Positions 1 through 35,821 of a stretch of 64,000 nt of DNA are shown one piece after another. This DNA is from Podospora anserina (Eukaryota), in the NCBI GenBank assembly GCA_017654855.1, contig CM030334.1:2108001-2172000 (forward strand). The letters run 5' to 3'. Both the position numbers and the translations under genes were made by a program. A model generated the notes under the pieces. The model saw only the letters and a program-made list of their open reading frames with translations. It searched no databases and had not been told where the DNA came from. Positions within the stretch are counted from its first letter, which is position 1; the number at the start of each line of letters is the position of its first letter.

Positions 1-2268
1 TTTTAGGCGTGAGCTAGTGCAGAAATATGGGAGGAACAGGGCAGGCTCAACAAGAGGTGCAGAGATATACGCGGAAGCTTCTAAAGGGCGAGATGGAGCA
101 GGCACTAATACAAAGGGAAGCTCGATTTCTGGTACAACCTGACGTGGAAAGAGCTGCAAAACTTCATACCAGAGAGACTCCGCAGAGAAAAGTTCGGGCG
201 GCCTGGTGGAGCCGTGTACTGCGTAAGATTGTTCGTGCTCAGCCAAAGGCAAAGGACGAATATAGACAGTATAATTAAGAGAATCAGTCACACGTTATCT
301 TTTAATACTCCTTGAGGCTTTGCTCCTTCAAACTGCAGTGATCGCCTCGATGAATCTATAGAGATCGATCAATATTTTCAATCTGAGTGGTAGAGAAGAA
401 TGCCGACGATGGTCCATTGACAGCGACACAATACAGCAATGGTTCAAGTGCCTCCCTAATATTCTTCAATTGTTATTGCAAGCTATCCAACTTTGTATTT
501 TACTCCCGCTCTCCATTTACACTCAGATGATACGTACCCAGGTGGCGAAAGCCAAGGTCTGACGGTAGCGCTGTGGATGGGACTGGCACTAGGAGCTCCC
601 GTCGAGTTCTCGGTAGCCTGGGCAGAGGTTGTCGGCAGTGGTGGTGGAGGGGGTGGATCCATAGCCGTTGTCGAGGGGCTCAGTGGAAGAAGATCTCGAC
701 GGAAGACTCTCGTGTACGGCTAGGGACCGGTGATATCTTGAAGACAGAACCACCCCCGCCCGCCTCGCCATTTCAGTCTTGCCTAGTTTCCAATGCATTG
801 CCTCAGCGGCGCTCCACGGGACCGGCATTTCCTTTGCCAGTATGGTCCACATCTCGGATTTGAGCCTGAAGTTTGTAAGCTTTTTTTTGCCTTCAATACT
901 CTATTAGACAAAAAAAGGGGTCGGTAGTTACCTCTCGTATTTCCTTGCAAACTCATTCTTACGCTCTTCATCCCGCTTAAGCTGCTCCAAATAGTTTTGG
1001 TAGTGAAGACGGCAACTGACAGAGCTCCGTCCTGGAAGGAGCTTCGAGATATCGTCCCATTTATTCCCTTGGCCCCGGAGGTTGATAATCTTATTATCCT
1101 CCTCAGTAGACCACTTGCATTTTTCTGGTGTCGGCAATTCGGATGGCGGCCTGCTGCGCTTGTTACTCGAACGCAATACCGAAGTCGGAGTTGACGCCGG
1201 AGGGATTTCAGGTACCACAAAGCCAAATCGCGAAGACAAGGAGGGGGCCGAGGCGGAGGGAGCCTGCTGGGTAGGCGACACAGTCGACTTATTCGAGTCG
1301 GTGTCGATTAATGAGGCGATATCCAGGATGATGATGTATGAATGCTGATATATTCTTTGATGCAAGCAAGATGTTGAGATCTAGAGTTGGAATTTTGCTC
1401 TTGTCTGCAGTGGAAAGATTGTCGACTGAAGAAGAACCGGACTAGGGCTTATGACGGAGAAAGGCAGCGCTTCAGGACACAGTTCACGTACCGTAAATGC
1501 GGTTGTTACGTGTTGTTTTTCCTTCTTCTCTTCTGCTGAGTCAAGGGTCGGAACGTTGATGATAGACCGAATCACATAATCCTCGAGAAATGCTTTGCAA
1601 ACATCTCTCGCAACACGACAGTTGCGGCAGAGATCGACCCAGATACTGTCGGCTTGGATATCAGTGTGCTCAACAACTTCACGGTTCCAACTAGTTCCAG
1701 GAGAATTAGACCAAAGCATTAACGAACAAGAATCGCCGTACAGCTTACCTGCACCATAACCGCTAACACCAGAGGCGCTTACTTTCGACTCTGGGATAAA
1801 TGTTGCGTGATGAATTGCTATCATTACCAGCAGTAGTACCGGCGCGGCGCTCTTTAGCGTATACTTTAAGAAGCTGTTTAGCCCGGCGACGTCTCTCTTC
1901 CAAGTTCCACTTAGAATATATATGTACCACCGAAATGCATAGGGCAAAGAGGCAGGGAAAAAAAGAGGAGGAGGGAAACGAGCAGATATAATAAATAGGG
2001 AAGGGCACTTTGTAGTAAAACCGCGCTGCAGTCCAAAAATACCAAAGGTATGCCCCCTGGCCCGCGCAAATACGGGTTGGTGGCCATGATAGAAGACCGC
2101 GGCGTGGGGGGGGAAAAAAATAGTCGGTAGGGGTGAAGCCAACAAGACGGTGCTGTCCGTTGGGACTTCTGAAAATGGTGGTGTTGAGCCCTTTTCTGGA
2201 GGTCAAAACGTCGGCGGGGTGACTCAGCGAAAAGAAACGGGGCGCTGGCTCACCCGACAGACAAGAAC
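1..2268. mobile_element. Putative terminal segment of a large element inserted into a 5S rRNA gene (Starship-like), continuing beyond the left edge
   Basis: A 5S gene starting at 2336 (-) matches 5S closely only to about 2269, then diverges sharply. The DNA beyond the break carries a Myb/SANT gene. The other boundary and any recombinase gene are not in the window. Confidence 0.55.
589..1824 (-). CDS. Myb/SANT-like DNA-binding protein (multi-exon; 5' structure uncertain)
   Basis: The Myb repeat KWSTEEDNKIINLRGQGNKWDDISKLLPGRSSVSCRLHYQNYLE splices through intron 866-931 (GTAACT...TTCAG) to RLKSEMWTILAKEMPVPWSAAEAMHWKLGKTEMARRAGV, the typical tail of this fungal Myb family. The upstream ORF 1381-2145 is in the same frame, separated by one TAG that a GTACGT...TAG intron (1381-1491) would remove. 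The ATG at 1824 is tentative. Confidence 0.75.
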
Positions 2269-2336
2269 CCGGTCAGCTGTTTGACTAGGGGAGAGCGGAC
2301 GGGATCCCGTATTTTCAACTGCCTATGGTCGTATGT
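2269..2336 (-). pseudogene. Truncated 5S rRNA gene (5' ~68 nt only)
   Basis: The minus strand reads ACATACGACCATAGGCAGTTGAAAATACGGGATCCCGTCCGCTCTCCCCTAGTCAAACAGCTGACCGG, highly similar to the 5' part of the intact 5S at 35503. It has the same upstream flank GACCCAAACCGTC. The normal 3' half ending GTTGTATGT is absent. Confidence 0.9.
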
Positions 2337-2535
2337 GACGGTTTGGGTCTGAACCAGACTACATATCTGGAGTCTGAAGTCCGTCTGCCAAGCATTGGTG
2401 AAGGTATCTTATCAGTGCTACTTCGTTTGCTCGCAATACCGTTGTATCGATCCATGATATCGAATTCAAGGCTCAATTGACTCTGTTCTCCTATGTATAC
2501 AGACTGCATCGTGATGTCTATTAACCATGTGCTTG

Positions 2536-4977
2536 TTACTGACCTTGAGCCTGCCCCTGAGCCTGCCCCTGTCCCTGACCCCTATCCACCATCTCGGGGT
2601 CCTCCAACGCCGGCATCTCCTCATCAGTATCCTCTTCACTCTCCTCCTCATCCTCCTCATCCGACATCCAAGCCCCCGGCATCTGAACAGGAGGATACCC
2701 CACCCTCATCCTCATATACTCCATAACCTCCGCAATACTCGGTCCTTCCCCAAACGCCCCCTCCCCATCAAAGTCCTCCGGATCCGTCCACTCCGCCTCC
2801 TCATCATCCTCCTCATCAACGCCAAACGTAAGGTCATGCCTCGTCCGCCCATCCCAGTTACCCCCAAACTCGGTGGTGTCCTCATCATCAGAATCATCAT
2901 CGTCATCGTCGTCGTCGTCCTCCTCCTCCCCATCCTCAACCGTAGCCTGGAACGGTCCTCGCGGCTGTTGTCCCTGTCCAGCGGCACCCCCATCCCCAGC
3001 AGCGCGTGGTCGGACCCTACCCATCAACGCGTTAAAGAAGCCCATTATCCCGCCTCCACCGCCGTCATCAACCTCGAGCATAGCTTCGAGTTCCTCCTGG
3101 GGCATCTCGGCTAGCAACCGCTCGGCTGCCGCCCGCATCCCGGCTTCTCTGCGAGGGTCCATTTGGGTGCTAAACAGGCCTCGCGTAGCAATGGAATCGG
3201 GTTTCCAGGGTAGTTTTTGAATCTCGCTGCTAAAAATGTTGTCTACTGCCGCTGGTGGCAAGGGGTCGAACTCAAAGTTCGGAGAAGCATCGTGTAGCAG
3301 CTTCCTTGGGACGAGGGTCATGAGGGACGGCGTACTGTCGAGGTAAATGAATCTTGCTACTGCGAGCGTTGGCTCTGGGCTCTGGGGACATCTGTAGACG
3401 TCTATCGGGAGGAGCTTCTTAGCCTTGTTTGCTGCTGATTTGAGGAGGGAGATGGCATTGGGGTTGTTCCAGAGGTCCTTGGAGATGTGAAGGTAGAGCT
3501 CTGTATAAAGTTTGTCGTCATCGTTCCGCGGAGTGTGACCCCAGATGGACTGGGGAGTATCTAGGCTGAGAGCGGAAAACAAGGCGCCGTAGAGCCAAGG
3601 CAGAGTCTCGATGTTCTTGACGAGGGTCTCGTGCGCCGTGTCGTAGTCATCGAGCTGGAGGTAGGCTAAGGGCAGAGTATGGAGAGGATACAAGACCGCA
3701 TCCGGCCACCTGGAAGCGAGGGCATCGCAAAACTTGACAAACCACTCCGCCTCGCGGGATCGAAGCGCAAGAACGGGCACCCAGTTGAGCAGGGCGTAAG
3801 GGTCATCATGGTTGAGGCTCAAGTACAACTTAGACCATTCAAGGGCGGTTCGATAGGTGCCCTTGAGAATGAGCTTCTGGATCAAGTTGTAGCCAGCGAG
3901 GTAGAACTGTCTGTTTTCAGGCCTGGCAAAGTTGATCCTGGCTTTGCCCTGTTCAAGTTTGCGGCGGAAATCACTAAGCGTAACGCGGCCAAAGGTGAAG
4001 AGAGCACGCTCAATGAGATCAGCAGCGAGAGCTGAGTTCTGGTCCTGTCGGGCAACCTTACTGCCCTGAATCAGAGACGACACATGGTATGGGTTCCGGT
4101 GCAAGAAGTGGATGATCTGCATGGGGTCTCCCATCTGGACAAGCTGAAAGAACGACCCCTCAAGATCGTCGTAGGCCTTCTCGTGGGCAAACGTGAACTC
4201 GACCACATCAGGTGTGCCTTCGCTGAGGCGCTTCATGATCAGCCCCTGAGCCGCACCCCTAGGCCACGACTTTTTGCCCTCGATGAAAGGGTTGGTGCGG
4301 AGGAGCGTCTCAAACATGCCCGGCTTCGCCGGCCCCGAGCGACGTGGGTCGGTGGCAACAGCACTTAGGTATGTCTCGAGATCAAGATTCTCTGGCAGAA
4401 TTCTCTGTCGGGTTTCCTGGCGTTCCTCCACCTGGGCGAGATCCATAGCCTTGCCGAACAAACGGCGCATCTCGTTCGCGGCCTTGAGATGTCGGCTGTC
4501 GATCTTCAAGAGGTCGTTGAGCTGGTCGTCCGGGTTTTGTTTTGATGAGCTTGCCGCTGATGCAGCGCCGGCCCGTTGCTTTTTGGCCTTGATGTTGAGC
4601 TCTTTGAGTGCCTTCTCCAGCTCATCCTCCCTAGCCTTGGGGCGCTCTGCTGCTGGGGTTTCTGATGGTTGCTTTCCCTTCTTCTTTTTCTTCTTCTTGG
4701 ACTTCTTCTTGGCAGGTTCGGCCTGTGGACTGGCAACTTCCTTCTCTACCGGTTTTGATGGTTCTGGTTCCTCGTCCTCATCGTCGTCGTCGTCGTCGTC
4801 GTCGTTGCCGTCACCCATGTCCCCGAGCGCTGCGAAGGAGAACATGTTGCCGCGGGGCTTCGCCACTACCTCCTCCTCCTCCTCCTCGCTGGTCTCTACT
4901 TTTGTCTCAGGGGCTTCATTCTGTGAGTTCAAGAGTTCTTGCTGCTTTCGCAGCTTGCGTAATTGTCGACTCGCCAT
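2536..4977 (-). CDS. RQC1: Ribosome quality control complex subunit Rqc1 / TCF25 (Nulp1) family
   Basis: Start MASRQLRKL, KKKSKKKKKKK tract, EMRRLFG, NPYHVSSLIQ, DLIERALF, RPENRQFYLA and RTALEWSKLYLSL motifs. Single long ORF with an acidic tail. Confidence 0.9.
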   Translation of the reverse strand: MASRQLRKLRKQQELLNSQNEAPETKVETSEEEEEEVVAKPRGNMFSFAALGDMGDGNDDDDDDDDEDEEPEPSKPVEKEVASPQAEPAKKKSKKKKKKKGKQPSETPAAERPKAREDELEKALKELNIKAKKQRAGAASAASSSKQNPDDQLNDLLKIDSRHLKAANEMRRLFGKAMDLAQVEERQETRQRILPENLDLETYLSAVATDPRRSGPAKPGMFETLLRTNPFIEGKKSWPRGAAQGLIMKRLSEGTPDVVEFTFAHEKAYDDLEGSFFQLVQMGDPMQIIHFLHRNPYHVSSLIQGSKVARQDQNSALAADLIERALFTFGRVTLSDFRRKLEQGKARINFARPENRQFYLAGYNLIQKLILKGTYRTALEWSKLYLSLNHDDPYALLNWVPVLALRSREAEWFVKFCDALASRWPDAVLYPLHTLPLAYLQLDDYDTAHETLVKNIETLPWLYGALFSALSLDTPQSIWGHTPRNDDDKLYTELYLHISKDLWNNPNAISLLKSAANKAKKLLPIDVYRCPQSPEPTLAVARFIYLDSTPSLMTLVPRKLLHDASPNFEFDPLPPAAVDNIFSSEIQKLPWKPDSIATRGLFSTQMDPRREAGMRAAAERLLAEMPQEELEAMLEVDDGGGGGIMGFFNALMGRVRPRAAGDGGAAGQGQQPRGPFQATVEDGEEEDDDDDDDDDSDDEDTTEFGGNWDGRTRHDLTFGVDEEDDEEAEWTDPEDFDGEGAFGEGPSIAEVMEYMRMRVGYPPVQMPGAWMSDEEDEEESEEDTDEEMPALEDPEMVDRGQGQGQAQGQAQGQ

Positions 4978-5950
4978 TTTTTGTGGTTTGATGAGAAGAG
5001 GTTGTTCTGTCGACAGCGAGTGAGTTGCCGACAGTTGGCTAAACTGATGAAAGACATAAAAGTGGAGGGGTAAGCAACAAGTATGGCGGGGCAGCACCCA
5101 ATCTTTGATGGCAGCCACCAAAGCAAAGCAAAGTTGTTCAAGTTGCGATGCTGACGCTTGTAAATTGGCTAGCTCGGAGTGATACTGTCAGATGTATTGG
5201 ATTTCACTCTTCTGGTTTCACCCTTCTGCTTTTGCACGGCGAAGGCGAAATGGAACGAAGGCGGTTTGCCGATGGAGTCATCGCCGTCTTGAAGATGCCA
5301 CTACGCACTGTACGATGCACTGTGTTTGGGAGCTCTTTCATGATCGACAGGAACATGACATAAACCACAACTGTAGCCAACCTCCGATGGGGGTTGACAC
5401 ACTCATACCTCTACATCTTTTACATTTCTGGTCTCGATGTTAATTGATTACAGCAATAGCGGTGTCCAATGCCCAGTACCTATCCTCTTGGCTCCAGACA
5501 AATGTTCGCAACTTCGTTGGCTGGCTCCAGGTCTGGACCTCTCAAGGCTCCTGCCTCCATGGACCAGCGTATCAAGCTCTCCTCTCCGTTGCAGCCGAGT
5601 GGTTGACATTTGCCATTGTTCAGAGACACCATGCATGGCGTCGCTAGTCTGATACCCGTCTGCTTGGGCCTGGGCTCTCTTGTCGCCAGCCTCGAGGGGC
5701 TGAGAATACCCCTGCAGGCTCAACCTTCGGTGTTGATATGCTGAGGGGTTTGGAAATGCGGTGGGCAAGATTTCCTATTTGGTCACTTTCTCTCCGTCTC
5801 TTTCTTGCAGCAACCGATTGCTTCCAAATCCCATCTTTTTGAAGTGGTAATTCTCTCCATTTTGTCCGCCAAACTTTCGAGGTTGGGCTTTCACTTACGT
5901 TTGTCCATCTGAATCACCCGACCGACTAGCGGGCACAGTCGCTCGCTTCC

Positions 5951-7862
5951 ATGTCTGCCCAAAAGTACGATGATAGCAGGTTCACACGCCGGGCGTGTGT
6001 GACTGGTTTGGTCTTGTGTTGGTTTGTTGCTGTAGGCAGTATCATCGGAGGTGGACTATGTCTCTACAAGGAGGTCCGCGATGACGATTCAATCCGGATC
6101 GACTTGTCCAACAGATGGAGAGAGCTTCTCCCTCTCGGACTGAACATATTCAGTAGGTTGTCGCAAAACTCCTTCCCTGGCTGGTACTGCAGGACAGCTA
6201 ACCACAGTCTGACTCCAAGTTACCCTACTCAACGATAGCATGGGATACATCCATGCCGTTGCTCTCCGTTGGTCTCTCATAAGAGAAGGGAGCCTAGACT
6301 TCAACTCGAACCTGCGTCTACTCACATTCTCCAAGAAAAGTCCCCCAAACGGTTATATCCCCAACTTTCTCTACCTTTTCGGAATCATACTCGCCTACGG
6401 TGCTACATCTGTCATATTCTTGAGCCTTAACCCCGAACTCGCCCGTCTGCTAGGCAAGTCCTACGAAATCACCGACACAAGGGGTGTCCATCTAAACGGC
6501 ATTGCTCTCATTATTCTCGGCTGCGGCTTTCTCCTCCAAGCCGCCGTTACCAACTGGGCCTTGGCGGGTACTAAGATTCCCACATGGAGCTCGAACCCGC
6601 TCATCATTGCGAACACGTGCATGAATCATGATACCGAACACTACCAGGTTATGCCTCGCCAAGGCCGCTGTATGATGGGAGTTCACCTGGCAGGGAATGA
6701 CATCAAGGCCATCCGACCTACTCGAAAGCAAAGGCCAATGATTACAGCACATCCCCATGTCCGCCGTGTGTTGTATCTCTTGTGGGCTCTTCCAATCCTG
6801 AGCGGCGTTTGGGGAGGCGGTGTCTACGGTTACCTCTTACGTGGAAGTAAAAATGGAATCTTTGGGCGGTCATGGAGTCTTCTCCCAGAGTTTCCACCTC
6901 ACATAGACGAGAACTGCCACACTAAGCAATGTACTGACGGGACATCAGTACTGAACCTGGGCTGGAGTACCTCCGGTGGTGCGGCTGGTACAACGGGTGG
7001 CGTCTTCCTCATCATTGCGATCCAGTCTGTGGTCACACTCTCTCTTCACTGTGCCGAACTGATCGTGAATCTTTCACGGGACGAAGGCATATACAGGAAG
7101 CTGATCGGACCAAGAGGCACCAACGGGCACTTCAACTCCGTCGTGGAAGCCTTCACCTCATGGCAAACAATTTTTTTGTTTACTCTCAAATCCGGTGTTC
7201 ACTGGATGTTCGGTTTGGCTATTAATCTCCAATTTCAGTTGGGGGTCAACATGTACCCCTCACAAATATTTTACTTTGGTGGCCTAACTTTGGTGGCCGC
7301 CTTGTTTGGTTTGCTCCTGTCTTTGCAGCGCCCATCAGGTTACTTGCCGCCAACATACGGCCACATCCAAACTATCGCCGACATTATTGACGAATGGGCG
7401 GATTCTGGATGCATGTTTTGGGGTGAGAAGGGTCCACATTACACCGGAACAAGCACCAAGCGGCTCAAACAACCCGATCCAAACGTTGAGTACGGGGGAA
7501 TGAAGAAGGGCGACGGCCAAGGGAGTCACAGTGACGATATCACGGAGATACCTCTTGAAACCTTCAGTCCAGCCAGTCTGGTAGCCTCACCACCAATGGA
7601 CCAGAGCTTTGGCTATGTCTCTCCGGTTGTTCAGACACCTCCTTCGGCAAATGCTGCCTGGGGCCAGCCGTGGCAACAACAGCAGGGTCAATTCACGTAT
7701 GCCCAGTGGACTAATCAAGATCCACGGCACCAATACCAGCACAGCCAGCAGCATCAGACGAGCTACGACAGTCTCAACAGCAGGTTCTCGGGACAGACTG
7801 GGTATTCGGGGTATAGCAACCAGAGCACACAACCATTCCTGCACAATTATAGGAGCTATTAG
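5951..7862 (+). CDS. Fungal multi-pass membrane protein of unknown function
   Basis: Exon 1 (5951-6152) joins through intron 6153-6219 (GTAGGT...CTAAC...AAG) to give NIFITLLNDSMGYIH. Several hydrophobic segments, plus FNSNLRL, PTWSSNP, LHCAEL and PPTYGHIQT motifs. Q/S/Y-rich tail. Confidence 0.85.
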
Positions 7863-8814: not shown

Positions 8815-10856
8815 ATGTCCGATTATATCGGGTTCGTTGTTGCCGACTCTTGCTGTTTCTTCGACTGATTGCTAACTCTTTCGAATACAGATCCAGAATA
8901 TCCCTCATATCCAAGAGCGACATCCGCTATGTCGGCACACTTGCGAGCATCAACTCGGATGACTCGACTGTCTCGCTCGAAAATGTGAGGACGTTTGGCA
9001 CTGAGGGCCGCAAGGGCAAGATCGAGGAAGAGGTTCCCCCTTCCGACCAGGTCTACGAGTACATTGTCTTCCGCGGAACGGATGTCAAGGATCTCAGGAT
9101 CGAGGAGGGCCCCGCCGCCAAGGAGAACAAGCCGCCGGCTGTCCCCAACGATCCTGCCATTGTTGGTGTGAGTCTACCCTTTCTCTTTCACTGTTCTGCC
9201 CATGGCCATTGTTATGATGAAATATTTTCGGATGTAAAAACATATTTGTCTGAAAAGCGCAAAAACCCCATGTTGATAATTTCCGTTGCCTTCCTTCTGA
9301 TCATCTGGCCACGCACACTCTTTGCAAAGCTCAAGCCCTATGTGGAGTAACTGCTGACCAAAATCACTCAGGCTCGCCCTCGGCCTGGCAACGTCGCTCC
9401 TGGCCCACCTGGTGGTCCTCAAGGCCCTCCACAAGGTCCCGGTCCCATCGGGCACCCAGGCCCGCACGGCGCTCCGAACCAGCCGCAGCCTCCTCCAGGC
9501 GCACCTGGTTATGGCTACTTCCCTCCTCACATGGGAGGATGGGGTGGACGTCCAGCTCCTGGTGGCCCCGGTGGTCCCAGTCCAGGCCCCGTAGGTCCAG
9601 GTGGTCCCGGTCCTTTTGGCATGCCCTACCCGCAGCCGGGGTGGTTCCCGCCGGGACAAGAGTTTCCGCCAATGGGTCCCGGGCAATGGAACCCGTATCC
9701 TCAGTTTCCTCCTGGTCCTGGTGGTCCTGGTGGCCCTGGTGCTCCTGGTGGTCCTCCCGGTTTCCCTGCCGCTCCTGGTGCACCTGGACAAGGTCGTCAG
9801 TCGGCTGACCAGACGCCCAGCAACCAGGGTCCAGGCCAAAAGCCCGCACCCATCGGTCCTTCTGGAGAAAAGAAGGCCCCGACTCCAGGACACAATGCTC
9901 AGCCTTCGGAGTCCAAGCCCATGATCCCACCTCAGCAATCTGCGGGTGGTCCGGCACCTCCTCCGCCCGTCGCTTCCAAGCCCACTGCCGAGGAAGTCAA
10001 GGCCACGGCAGCTAATCTCGCCCAGCCTACTGCTCCGGCTTCCTCTCAGGGCATTCCCACAGGTCCCAAGAGCGATCGCCCTGTGCAGATTCTGCCCGCT
10101 ATCCCCCTTCCAGTTGGCTTGACCTCTAGAGTTGCTCAGCCATCGCCCTCCGCCACCAGATCCGAGCAGAACAATGCCGGCGCTACACCCGCTGCATTGC
10201 GCGATGCCACTCAGGCTGCCAAGGAAGCCGTTGCCAATGCGATGGCTCAGATGGAGAACAATGCATACGCTCAAATTGCCAGCCAGGGCGCTGCTGTTGA
10301 CAACTTGACCAAGAAGGTCAACGAGATGAGGGTCAATGCGGCTCGTGGTGGTCATGCCCCTCGCGGTGGAGGCGGACGTGGACGTGGAGGTGCTCGCCCT
10401 GCTGCCAAGGTGGAGGTCCCCGATTCCGACTACGATTTTGCGACTGCGAATGCCAAGTTCAACAAGCAGGACCTTGTCCGTGAGGCTATCGCTGGTGGCT
10501 CGCCAATTGTGGAAGCTCCCGCCCCAGAGGCTGTTGCGCCCGAAGCCCCTGTTGAGAGCACCGAAGCGGTTGAACCCGCTTACAACAAGCAGCGGTCGTT
10601 CTTTGACAACATCTCTAGCGACCTGAAGGACAGGGAGAATGCTTCTCAGAAGCCGGGCGGCCGTGAGTGGCGTGGAGAGGAACAGAGGAAGAACATTGAG
10701 ACCTTTGGCCAAGGCAGCGTCGACGGTGGTTACCGTGGTTATCGCGGCGGTCGGGGCCGTGGCCGTGGAGGTCGTGGACGTGGATTCCGCGGAGGACGGG
10801 GCGGTAATAATGGTGGATATCGCCCCCAACAACAGCAAACACAGGCACCCCAGTAG
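8815..10856 (+). CDS. SCD6: Scd6/Lsm14 (Sum2/RAP55) mRNA decapping activator, P-body protein
   Basis: MSDYIG, intron 8832-8890, then the Lsm domain SRISLISKSDIRYVGTL...VFRGTDVKDL. Second intron about 9168-9372. P/G-rich region, FDF-like DYDFATANAKFNK, FFD box (SFFDNIS), TFG box (NIETFG) and RGG tail. Confidence 0.95.
9209..9304 (+). ncRNA. snR52: Intronic box C/D snoRNA, snR52-like (predicted guide for 18S Am420, yeast numbering)
   Basis: Box C ATGATGA at 9214-9220, D' CTGA at 9250-9253, box D CTGA at 9297-9300, flanking stem GGCCA/TGGCC. The guide GTTGCCTTCCTT before box D is complementary to the conserved 18S AAGGAAGGCAGC (one G-U pair) and matches the yeast snR52 3' end as I recall it. 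Confidence 0.85.
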
Positions 10857-35317: not shown

Positions 35318-35436
35318 ACATACGACCATACCCACCAGAATACTCGGCATCCCGTCCGCTCTGCCCTAGATAAACTGGTGAGGGCCGAACCAGTACTCAG
35401 GTGGGTGACCACTGGGGAATCCTCGGTGTTGTATGT
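35318..35436 (+). rRNA. 5S rRNA gene (copy A)
   Basis: 119 nt ACATACGACCATACCCACCAG...GGTGTTGTATGT with paired termini, followed by a T-run (Pol III terminator). Confidence 0.96.
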
Positions 35437-35502
35437 CTTTTTCCTGTTTTTTTCCTCAGTCTCATTGTCCACACATGAACCCATCTCCTGACCCAAACCG
35501 TC

Positions 35503-35621
35503 ACATACGACCACACCCAGCTGAAAATACGGCATCCCGTCCGCTCTGCCCGAGTCAAACAGCTGAGGGCCAGATCAGTACTCAGGTCGGTGACGACTGG
35601 GGAATCCCTGGTGTTGTATGT
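35503..35621 (+). rRNA. 5S rRNA gene (copy B, different sequence type)
   Basis: 119 nt ACATACGACCACACCCAGCTG...GGTGTTGTATGT followed by AATCTTTT. Confidence 0.96.
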
Positions 35622-35821
35622 AATCTTTTGCCGGAATCTTCTATTTTTTTGGGTGATTCTGGTTGTTTGTTGTCTTCATTTCCTGTTGCGTTGGAAGACA
35701 AGAGTCTCTTGACCTCAAACTCGCTGCGTTTCTACTACCGTCATCATCAAGCGGTAAAGCGCGAGATGAAGTATCCTAGTCTCGTGTCCACTGACGTGCA
35801 GGGTCCTTGGTGGTGGAATGG

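What the first reader, a model, noticed from the sequence alone, without database searches (positions are those of the whole stretch)
1..2350. 5S rRNA gene broken at about nt 68 next to a Myb gene: probable end of a 5S-targeting giant transposon (Starship-like)
Seen in the sequence: a minus-strand 5S gene starts at 2336 and keeps the native upstream flank GACCCAAACCGTC, identical to that of the intact copy at 35503. It is well conserved for about 68 nt, through the box A region, then diverges abruptly. The DNA beyond the junction carries an inward-pointing Myb/SANT gene, while conserved housekeeping genes (RQC1 onward) lie on the other side. Established knowledge, from memory: some Starship elements (DUF3435 tyrosine-recombinase captains) insert into dispersed 5S rDNA, and Myb/SANT genes are recurrent Starship auxiliary genes. 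Inference: 1-2268 is the captain-distal end of such an element, whose cargo lies left of this window.
Basis: partly seen in the sequence, partly recalled or inferred. Interest (0 to 1): 0.9.

Follow-up and report, generated by a model that had tools for sequence, protein, structure and literature searches.

The report
Dead Starship captain end beside broken 5S
A 5S rRNA gene next to RQC1 in Podospora is cut short, and the DNA beyond the cut begins with the leftover front part of a Starship-type recombinase gene fused to a decaying copy of a host Myb gene: an old, immobile relic of a known kind of fungal giant transposon.

Summary
A minus-strand 5S fragment (nt 1-64 against the window's own copies, nt 1-67 against a variant copy and the Rfam model) lies at 2336..2270. 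It keeps its native 13-nt upstream flank. A Myb gene lies to its left and RQC1 to its right.

- **New evidence:** the first exon region of the "Myb" gene (ORF 1824..1381) is homologous to the N-terminus of a DUF3435 protein (library-wide phmmer E 5e-5; hhalign 98%). It starts 445 nt inside the break and reads inward, which is the layout of the captain (5') end, not the distal end.
- **Captain:** the catalytic part is absent from the window.
- **Myb part:** it is a degenerate, intron-retaining duplicate of the host gene Pa_3_6670, not shown to be a Starship edge Myb.
- **Age:** the Myb-RQC1 adjacency is shared by at least three other species of the P. anserina complex. All 20 holder runs listed carry both sides. 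The chimera diverges several times faster than RQC1.

It is therefore an old, decaying relic with no empty-site allele seen. Its size, far end and direct repeats could not be examined, because no DNA left of the window was available. The kind is known, so interest is modest.

The parts
2337..2349 (-). Native upstream flank of the 5S gene (GACCCAAACCGTC), identical to the flank of the intact copy at 35503
   Evidence: In one search most other 5S contigs diverge at 2337-2338 and only 3-4 per run share more of the flank.
2270..2336 (-). 5S rRNA gene fragment, nt 1-67 (through box A; the 3' part of the internal control region is missing)
   Evidence: Rfam 37.1 bits as a 3'-cut match to model 1-67; 40.6 bits with the next 14 nt; 91% identity to the 35503 copy; variant 5S contigs share letters to 2270.
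2256..2269 (-). First 14 nt beyond the break. They resemble the last 12-14 nt of 5S. Status open: element terminus, or 5S 3' end after a 41-nt internal deletion
   Evidence: Rfam aligns it to model 109-120, adding 3.5 bits over. It matches 8 of 9 letters of the terminal 9-mer; 469 of 200000 shuffles do as well (post hoc).
1825..2255 (-). Non-coding terminal stretch between the break and the relic's start codon, with homopolymer and CT-rich runs
   Evidence: No Pfam hit on its ORFs. RIP-type composite index +0.47 for 1830-2272, the only positive value measured. A 62-nt piece (2129-2190) recurs at 92% in another short contig beside a 5S piece.
1381..1824 (-). ORF of 147 codons: N-terminal relic of a DUF3435-family tyrosine recombinase (captain). 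Homology spans 1692..1468
   Evidence: phmmer against 1.84 billion representatives gives P0152 E 4.8e-5, P0153 4.9e-5, P0154 1.2e-4, P0155 9.7e-4. P0152 carries DUF3435, E 1.8e-16. hhalign probability 98.2%, E 4.4e-14, 68 columns. tblastn of the four proteins hits only this place in the window, E 1e-9 to 3e-9.
525..1332 (-). Degenerate DNA-level duplicate of the host Myb transcription-factor gene Pa_3_6670. The Myb domain is kept, the intron at 866-931 is retained, there are five internal deletions and a frameshift near 650-690, and the last ~65 codons are missing
   Evidence: tblastn of P0167 (P. anserina parent) residues 160-440 onto 1332..649 (E 1.4e-55) and 414-515 onto 707..525 in another frame; alignment A2; Pfam Myb_DNA-binding; parent cluster names PODANS_3_6670 and QC76x_306670.
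589..1824 (-). Chimeric gene (equivalent of QC762_305940 and QC763_305940): captain N-terminus plus Myb duplicate. Exons 1719..1492, 1380..932 and 865..589 give an open 317-codon frame
   Evidence: Splice model computed. It agrees with the NCBI models P0001 and P0002.
1..524 (.). Unassigned DNA left of the chimera, presumably element interior
   Evidence: No homologue for ORF 18-278 among proteins of 152-2000 aa. No Pfam hit on 7 ORFs. The same contig runs 3317 nt further left in 4 of 4 runs.
2536..4977 (-). RQC1/Tcf25 gene, the conserved flank (equivalent of QC76x_305950)
   Evidence: Pfam PF04910. It is 100% identical to P0142 and 97-98% to four sister species.

Best explanation
Window 1-2269 is the captain-proximal (5') end of an old, immobile, decaying Starship-type element (DUF3435 tyrosine recombinase). 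The element integrated into a dispersed 5S rRNA gene just downstream of RQC1 before the Podospora anserina species complex radiated. Shown: the 5S gene keeps nt 1-67 and its own upstream flank. An ORF starts 445 nt inside the break, on the same strand and reading inward, and its codons about 45-116 are homologous to the N-terminal region of a DUF3435 protein. The rest of the recombinase is not in the window. The ORF runs into a degenerate duplicate of the host Myb gene Pa_3_6670. The adjacency to RQC1 is shared by sister species. Inferred: a site-specific integration split the 5S gene. Later a deletion removed the catalytic part of the captain and joined its N-terminus to a co-oriented Myb copy, which was either cargo or DNA captured during repair. 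With no recombinase the relic cannot move by itself. The 5S stump lacks the 3' part of its internal control region, so it is probably silent. The chimera drifts under relaxed constraint.
For: The captain relic is supported by library-wide phmmer E 4.8e-5 to 9.7e-4 for 4 proteins. One of them, P0152, carries Pfam DUF3435 (60.5 bits, cutoff 25.8). hhalign gives 98.2%, and tblastn finds a single hit in the window at 1692..1468. The layout matches the published definition, 'DUF3435 gene at the 5' end in the 5'-3' direction' (PMC9156397). 5S rDNA is a documented Starship target: 23% of 222 curated sites, at internal positions (PMC11162782). The break is sharp at nt 67|68. Age and decay: Myb (305940) and RQC1 (305950) are neighbours in two sister species, and one fused gene model spans both in a third. 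The chimera is 85-88% identical between species against 97-98% for RQC1. Species differ in their C-terminal frameshifts. Nearly invariant Myb residues are changed in sister copies. The clade sits on a stem of 0.94 changes per site. A 62-nt piece of the terminal stretch recurs at 92% beside another 5S piece elsewhere in the genome.
Against: Only about 70-125 codons of the recombinase remain, and no DUF3435 Pfam hit exists in the window. Only one of the four homologues is long enough to show the DUF3435 domain. The far end, the 5S 3' part, direct repeats, inverted repeats and cargo were not seen. No empty site was found: 20 of 20 listed holder runs have at least 0.96 of the words of 1-6000, although that list is chosen for holding the stretch. 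Left-hand contigs reach past the break in 4 of 4 runs, but only 2 of 4 have 31 or more letters beyond it. The 14 nt after the break look like the 5S 3' end, which fits an internal deletion of the 5S rather than an insertion at nt 67. None of 80 metagenomic loci with Myb homologues (703,411 nt) holds a 5S or a captain-like match, so this Myb family is not generally linked to Starships.
Confidence: 0.6

Rival explanations
1. 1-2268 is the captain-distal end of a giant Starship, its Myb/SANT gene marks that edge, and the cargo and an intact DUF3435 captain lie far to the left.
For: MYB/SANT genes do sit at the edge opposite the captain and in the opposite sense in part of the Starships (PMC12256816, passages). 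The Myb reads inward from the break. 5S is a known target.
Against: The recombinase relic is at this end, upstream of and co-oriented with the Myb part. The Myb part is a decaying duplicate of host gene Pa_3_6670. The locus is shared across species with no empty site seen.
Confidence: 0.08
2. A patchwork without site-specific integration. A 5S pseudogene with a 41-nt internal deletion (nt 68-108), a fragment of a recombinase gene and a fragment of Pa_3_6670 were brought together by segmental duplication, ectopic recombination or filler DNA during break repair. The closeness of captain relic and 5S is secondary.
For: Rfam aligns 2256-2336 as a full-length model match with an internal gap. The post-break letters match the 5S terminal 9-mer in 8 of 9 positions, which 0.23% of shuffles reach. 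The Myb piece comes from the same chromosome-3 scaffold of 3,035,657 nt as the RQC1 protein identical to the window's. P. anserina has 15 partial 5S copies among 87 (PMC2441463). In one run the 5.6-kb contig has double depth, which fits a segmental duplication.
Against: The 3'-like stretch adds only 3.5 bits, and the test was post hoc. By my rough estimate, not a computed figure, a captain start at the canonical distance and direction from a 5S break is unlikely by chance. The parent Myb locus shares only three short pieces at 80% or more.
Confidence: 0.22
3. The integration was at or just after the 3' end of the 5S gene (window about 2256), and the 5S later lost nt 68-108 by an unrelated deletion. 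Alternatively, the element carries a 5S 3'-end-like terminus as part of its attachment site, as tRNA-targeting integrases do.
For: It reconciles the captain relic with the 3'-end-like 14 nt.
Against: It needs two events or an undocumented feature. The published 5S target sites are described as internal. There is no direct support.
Confidence: 0.1

Closest known systems
5S-rDNA-targeting Starships (Voyager in Macrophomina; Osiris navis, Enterprise family, in Aspergillus fumigatus)
   Same: A DUF3435-type recombinase gene starts a few hundred nt inside a junction with a split, dispersed 5S gene and reads inward (for the literature; here).
   Different: Only the N-terminal relic of the captain is left. 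No direct repeats, far end, cargo or presence/absence polymorphism were seen. The break is at nt 67|68, whereas Voyager sits 20 bp from the 5' start. The family could not be assigned.
Degraded Starships ('Derelicts', regions whose captain has decayed; Gluck-Thaler et al. 2022, PMC9156397)
   Same: An immobile remnant whose captain is degraded and which persists in the genome.
   Different: Those were recognised by conserved cargo (DUF3723, FRE, PLP, NLR). None of these was found in the 2.3 kb available here.
Starship MYB/SANT edge genes and DUF3435/MYB hybrid genes (O'Donnell et al. 2025, PMC12256816)
   Same: A Myb domain and captain-derived sequence lie in one gene at a Starship-type edge (here).
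   Different: The published edge Myb lies opposite the captain and in the opposite sense. Here it is fused behind the captain N-terminus. The hybrid class is defined by a DUF3435 InterPro hit, which this gene lacks. The Myb part is traceable to host gene Pa_3_6670. Supplementary sequences of that paper could not be seen.
Host Myb transcription factor Pa_3_6670 family (PODANS_3_6670, QC76x_306670; orthologues across Sordariomycetes and Dothideomycetes)
   Same: Collinear homology over parent residues 160-515, including the N-terminal DIASLI..DSNES..PTQQA motif, the Myb domain, the shared intron position and the GAPSASPIHSAT motif.
   Different: 47-69% identity only, five deletions, a frameshift, a lost C-terminus, and a stem branch of 0.94 against 0.0-0.1 for orthologues.

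Membership tests
Starship (captain-mobilised giant transposon) | Gene with a DUF3435 tyrosine-recombinase domain at the 5' end, reading 5'-3' into the element | tested here: not met
   No DUF3435 Pfam hit in the window. Only an N-terminal relic homologous to the region upstream of DUF3435 in P0152 remains, in the right place and direction. It is therefore filed as a relic, not as a Starship.
Starship (captain-mobilised giant transposon) | Flanking direct repeats or target-site duplication at both boundaries | not testable with these tools
   The far boundary lies outside the window and no genome is held. Contig sequence left of the window is not returned.
Starship (captain-mobilised giant transposon) | Presence/absence polymorphism with an empty site (evidence of mobility) | tested here: not met
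   20 of 20 listed holder runs carry at least 0.96 of the words of 1-6000 (the list favours holders). The same junction contig appears in 4 of 4 laid runs. The adjacency is shared by three sister species.
Starship (captain-mobilised giant transposon) | Large size with cargo genes (about 20-700 kb) | not testable with these tools
   Only 2.27 kb is in the window. The contigs stop 3317 nt further left.
Starship, 5S-targeting subset | Boundary inside a 5S rRNA gene | tested here: inconclusive
   A sharp loss of 5S identity at nt 67|68. The next 14 nt resemble the 5S 3' end, so an internal deletion is not excluded.
Starship distal-edge MYB/SANT gene | Myb-only gene at the edge opposite the captain, in the opposite sense | tested here: not met
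   The Myb part is co-oriented with and downstream of the captain relic at the same edge.
5S rRNA gene (Rfam RF00001) | Full-length match above the gathering score with all helices and the internal control region | tested here: not met
   40.6 bits against a gathering score of 38, but with 41 model positions missing. Alone, nt 1-67 scores 37.1. It is a pseudogene.
Myb_DNA-binding (PF00249) | Pfam match above the curated cut-off | tested here: met
   54.3 bits against a cut-off of 24.4, E 1.4e-14.

The most novel reading that the evidence does not exclude
The captain-N-terminus::Myb chimera is not mere debris. Two possibilities follow. It may record how Starships acquire their Myb/SANT partner, by capturing a host Myb factor of the Pa_3_6670 family directly behind the captain. 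Or it may be a domesticated regulator, kept as an open 317-codon frame in P. anserina, that pairs a recombinase DNA-binding module with a Myb domain. A related lead: the unit is a contig of constant 5.6 kb that ends at a repeat on each side and has double depth in one of four strains. That would fit a small non-autonomous derivative still copied or moved in trans.
Probability: 0.1. Interest if true: 0.6.

Novelty: new member of a known kind. Interest (0 to 1): 0.4.

Why it matters
Starships that split 5S genes, and degraded Starships, are both already described, so the kind is known. The local value has three parts.
- It gives a concrete origin for one of the 15 partial 5S copies of P. anserina.
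- It re-annotates the 'hypothetical/Myb-like' gene Pa_3_5940 and its QC76x_305940 equivalents as a captain-relic/Myb-duplicate chimera.
- It offers a dated example, older than the species complex, of how a captain end decays.

If the chimera proved functional or typical, it would bear on the unexplained link between Starship captains and Myb/SANT genes.

Tried and rejected
- **Genome and earlier notes:** no whole genome is held. Earlier notes of the scan gave nothing by place, sequence or words.
- **Left end of the window:** ORF 18-278 (+) has no homologue among proteins of 152-2000 aa. Nine further ORFs in 1-723 and 1763-2272 have no Pfam family; the single weak row is E 0.16. GC by codon position did not tell which frame codes.
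- **Orphan 5S 3' half:** none in the 64 kb apart from the two intact copies.
- **Copies of 1-2400 in the window:** none apart from the 5S matches.
- **Metagenomic Myb loci:** 80 kept of 224 relatives, 703,411 nt. 0 of 80 hold a 5S match (blastn, word 7, E up to 1e-3) and 0 of 80 a captain-like match (tblastn with P0152-P0155). These loci look like the housekeeping gene. They show that this Myb family is not generally tied to 5S or captains, and they do not test Starship Myb genes.
- **Apparent second captain piece upstream** (DSTVLLA at 2157-2137 and HGHQPVF at 2088-2068; E 7.8): rejected, hhalign probability 0.1%.
- **ESM Atlas:** on the relic exon it was uninformative, best score 0.79. On P0152 residues 40-185 it gave only leads: QRICH1, ALOG and Phage_int_SAM_1 clusters, and an integrase model at TM 0.48.
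- **RIP indices:** 1-2272 is the least negative stretch of the window (-0.25) and only 1830-2272 is positive (+0.47). The stretch is too short to call RIP.
- **Myb tree:** the placement of the Podospora clade is unresolved. It is a polytomy on a long branch, built with the quick method.
- **Local alignment of the post-break 30 nt to the 5S 3' half:** not significant (2215 of 5000 shuffles). The narrower terminal 9-mer test is significant but post hoc.
- **Literature:** no paper holds Pa_3_5920, Pa_3_5930, Pa_3_5940 or Pa_3_5950. Searches for Podospora with Starship and 5S found no account of this locus. The search for truncated Aspergillus 5S pseudogenes gave nothing I could use. My memory of such pseudogenes in A. 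nidulans is recall only.
Full report
**Observation**

Rfam finds three 5S matches in the window:
- an intact copy at 35318-35437 (88.2 bits);
- an intact copy at 35503-35622 (85.4 bits);
- a weak minus-strand match at 2336..2256 (40.6 bits, gathering score 38), aligned with 41 model positions missing.

The alignment and self-blastn show that 2273-2349 matches 35566-35490 at 91% over 77 nt. This covers 5S nt 1-64 plus the 13-nt upstream flank GACCCAAACCGTC. There is no similarity beyond that point.

Searched alone, 2270-2336 aligns to model positions 1-67 as a 3'-cut match (37.1 bits). In that alignment G14G15 of the fragment pairs with C65C66.

I laid Logan contigs of four runs from four studies. 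In each run, 1-2 contigs of a full-length 5S variant share the window's letters down to 2270 and then continue as ordinary 5S. The commoner variant leaves at 2273.

The Myb domain (PF00249, E 1.4e-14) and RQC1/Tcf25 (PF04910, E 7e-63) are both real.

**Organism and synteny**

The RQC1 product is 100% identical to a protein of a 3,035,657-nt scaffold (P0142). It is 97.0-97.9% identical to the RQC1 of four Podospora species: P. pseudopauciseta, P. pseudocomata, P. pseudoanserina and P. bellae-mahoneyi. Identity to Cercophora samala is 85-89%. The window therefore lies in the Podospora anserina species complex.

The best matches of the Myb exon are QC762_305940 and QC763_305940, at 93% over 150 aa. 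The RQC1 genes of the same two species are QC762_305950 and QC763_305950, so the two genes are neighbours there as well.

In P. pseudoanserina a single 1140-aa gene model (P0145) runs from RQC1 straight into the same Myb gene.

A Logan contig length of 17,111 nt is listed both for an 809-aa RQC1 variant and for the ORF next to the break. This hints at the same arrangement in a fifth lineage, which is an inference.

All 20 runs that hold window 1-6000 hold at least 0.96 of its sampled words, across six studies. That list favours holders, so it does not prove fixation.

In 4 of 4 laid runs one contig covers 1 to 2299-2317. By the tool's 31-letter rule, 2 of 4 formally bridge the break; the other two have 30 letters beyond it. 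The same contig runs exactly 3317 nt further left and then stops.

**What the 'Myb gene' is**

Splicing 1719..1492, 1380..932 and 865..589 gives an open 317-codon frame that agrees with the NCBI models.

The part from about 1332 to 525 is collinear with residues 160-515 of the host Myb factor. The evidence:
- The host factor's cluster is named PODANS_3_6670 and QC76x_306670, and it lies on the same 3,035,657-nt scaffold.
- The intron position is shared.
- There are five internal deletions.
- The frame changes near 650-690.
- The last ~65 codons are lost.

The sister species carry different frameshifts in that C-terminal part. They also change residues that are nearly invariant in the family, H126 and Q128 of alignment A2.

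Between species the chimera is 85-88% identical, against 97-98% for RQC1.

In a quick maximum-likelihood tree (100 rows, 169 columns), the four Podospora copies form one clade (SH-aLRT 100). It sits on a stem of 0.94 changes per site, while orthologues of the host gene sit on branches of 0.0-0.1. The placement of the clade is unresolved.

The parent gene matches the window at 80% or more only in three short pieces.

None of 80 metagenomic loci with homologues of this Myb (703,411 nt) has a 5S match or a captain-like match.

I conclude that the Myb part is a decaying DNA-level duplicate of a host gene. It is not a demonstrated member of a Starship-borne Myb lineage.

**The new evidence: a captain relic**

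The 147-codon ORF 1824..1381 covers the first exon region of the gene. I searched it against 1.84 billion representative proteins. Apart from its own cluster and P0002, four proteins scored below E 0.001:

| Protein | E-value | Length (aa) |
|---|---|---|
| P0152 | 4.8e-5 | 405 |
| P0153 | 4.9e-5 | 162 |
| P0154 | 1.2e-4 | 146 |
| P0155 | 9.7e-4 | 154 |

- P0152 comes from Lindgomyces ingoldianus. It carries Pfam DUF3435 at residues 197-354 (E 1.8e-16, 60.5 bits against a cut-off of 25.8).
- The other three are short proteins from contigs of about 1 kb. They align with P0152 residues 30-175.
- The window ORF against their alignment gives hhalign probability 98.2%, E 4.4e-14, over 68 columns.
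- Pairwise BLASTP gives 42% identity over 62 residues.
- tblastn of the four proteins against all 64 kb hits only 1692..1468, at E 1e-9 to 3e-9.
- Atlas look-alikes of P0152 residues 40-185 point to the N-terminal DNA-binding module of tyrosine recombinases. They include QRICH1, ALOG and Phage_int_SAM_1 clusters and an integrase model at TM 0.48. These are leads only.

The gene next to the break therefore begins with the N-terminal part of a DUF3435-family recombinase. Its start codon is 445 nt inside the break, on the same strand as the 5S stump and reading inward.

[quoted passage not shown] It also documents 5S rDNA as a frequent, internal target: 23% of 222 curated sites (PMC11162782, passages). 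Examples are Voyager and Osiris.

**Reading**

The most economical account is an old integration of a Starship-type element into the 5S gene downstream of RQC1, seen here from its captain end. A later deletion removed the catalytic part of the captain and joined its N-terminus to a co-oriented copy of Pa_3_6670. That copy was either cargo or DNA captured during repair.

The integration and the deletion are inferred. The homologies, order, strands and distances are shown.

Without a recombinase the relic cannot move on its own. The 5S stump ends after box A, so it is probably not transcribed; this rests on general knowledge of the 5S internal control region.

- Polarity: this is the captain-proximal end, not the captain-distal end.
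- The nature of the Myb gene.
- Activity: the element is shared across species, and no empty site was seen.

Published MYB/SANT edge genes lie opposite the captain and in the opposite sense. DUF3435/MYB hybrids are also reported (PMC12256816, passages; 10.1101/2025.02.28.640899, one passage). The present chimera resembles the hybrids in composition but lacks the DUF3435 domain.

**What remains open**

- The 14 nt after the break match the 5S terminal 9-mer in 8 of 9 positions. This was reached by 469 of 200000 shuffles and by 286 of 63272 window 30-mers taken on either strand (a post hoc test). The stretch raises the Rfam score by 3.5 bits. An internally deleted 5S, or an element terminus that mimics the 5S 3' end, therefore cannot be excluded.
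- The far end, direct repeats, inverted repeats, cargo and size are unknown, because no DNA left of the window could be read.
- A contig of 361-369 nt elsewhere in the genome joins a 92% copy of 2129-2190 to a 5S piece. The joint runs 2190 to 2285 and was seen in 2 of 4 runs. This could be a second copy of the same junction.
- In run X14 the 5.6-kb contig has depth 28.4 against 14-16 for its neighbours, while the other three runs show no such excess.
- P. anserina is reported to have 87 5S genes, of which 72 are full length (PMC2441463, passages). This stump is therefore one of about 15 partial copies.

**Verdict**

The feature is real, and a Starship-type origin is supported by a captain relic. 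It is an ancient, degraded and apparently immobile remnant of an already described kind, so interest is modest.

Noticed in passing
window 9205-9308 (+): C/D-box snoRNA Z13/snR52, Rfam 86.4 bits against a gathering score of 47.
   Followed up: no
window 35318-35437 and 35503-35622 (+): Two intact 5S genes in tandem, 65 nt apart. They are different sequence variants (about 79% and 91% identical to the stump). Only the second shares the 13-nt upstream flank with the stump.
   Followed up: partly
window 2270-2272 and 2322-2323: The stump belongs to a 5S variant with G14G15 and C65C66, a compensatory double change in helix II. Full-length copies sharing CCG at nt 65-67 exist as 1-2 contigs per run in 4 of 4 runs.
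   Followed up: partly
window 1-2317 plus 3317 nt to the left (contig of 5616-5634 nt): The contig has the same left end in four strains, which suggests a repeat boundary 3317 nt left of the window. In run X14 its depth is 28.4 against 14-16 for neighbouring contigs, which suggests two copies of the unit in that strain.
   Followed up: no
window 2129-2190 and 2285-2309: A contig of 361-369 nt from elsewhere in the genome holds a 92% copy of 2129-2190 joined to a 5S piece (joint 2190 to 2285, seen in X9 and X15; record 17 in X17). It may be a second, further deleted copy of the junction.
   Followed up: no
window 986-1080, 567-607 and 1260-1302: The parent Myb gene Pa_3_6670 aligns at 85% (14 differences in 95 nt) in the Myb domain and in two short flanking pieces. 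It lies on the same chromosome-3 scaffold as this locus.
   Followed up: yes
window 1830-2272: This is the only stretch measured with RIP-type indices over the usual thresholds (TpA/ApT 1.39, substrate index 0.92, composite +0.47). It is short and low in complexity, so this is weak.
   Followed up: partly
window 600, 1546, 1982 against 5785: Differences between strains that are not paralogue-derived: three in 1-2272 and one in 2350-6000 among four runs. The numbers are small but fit relaxed constraint on the relic.
   Followed up: no
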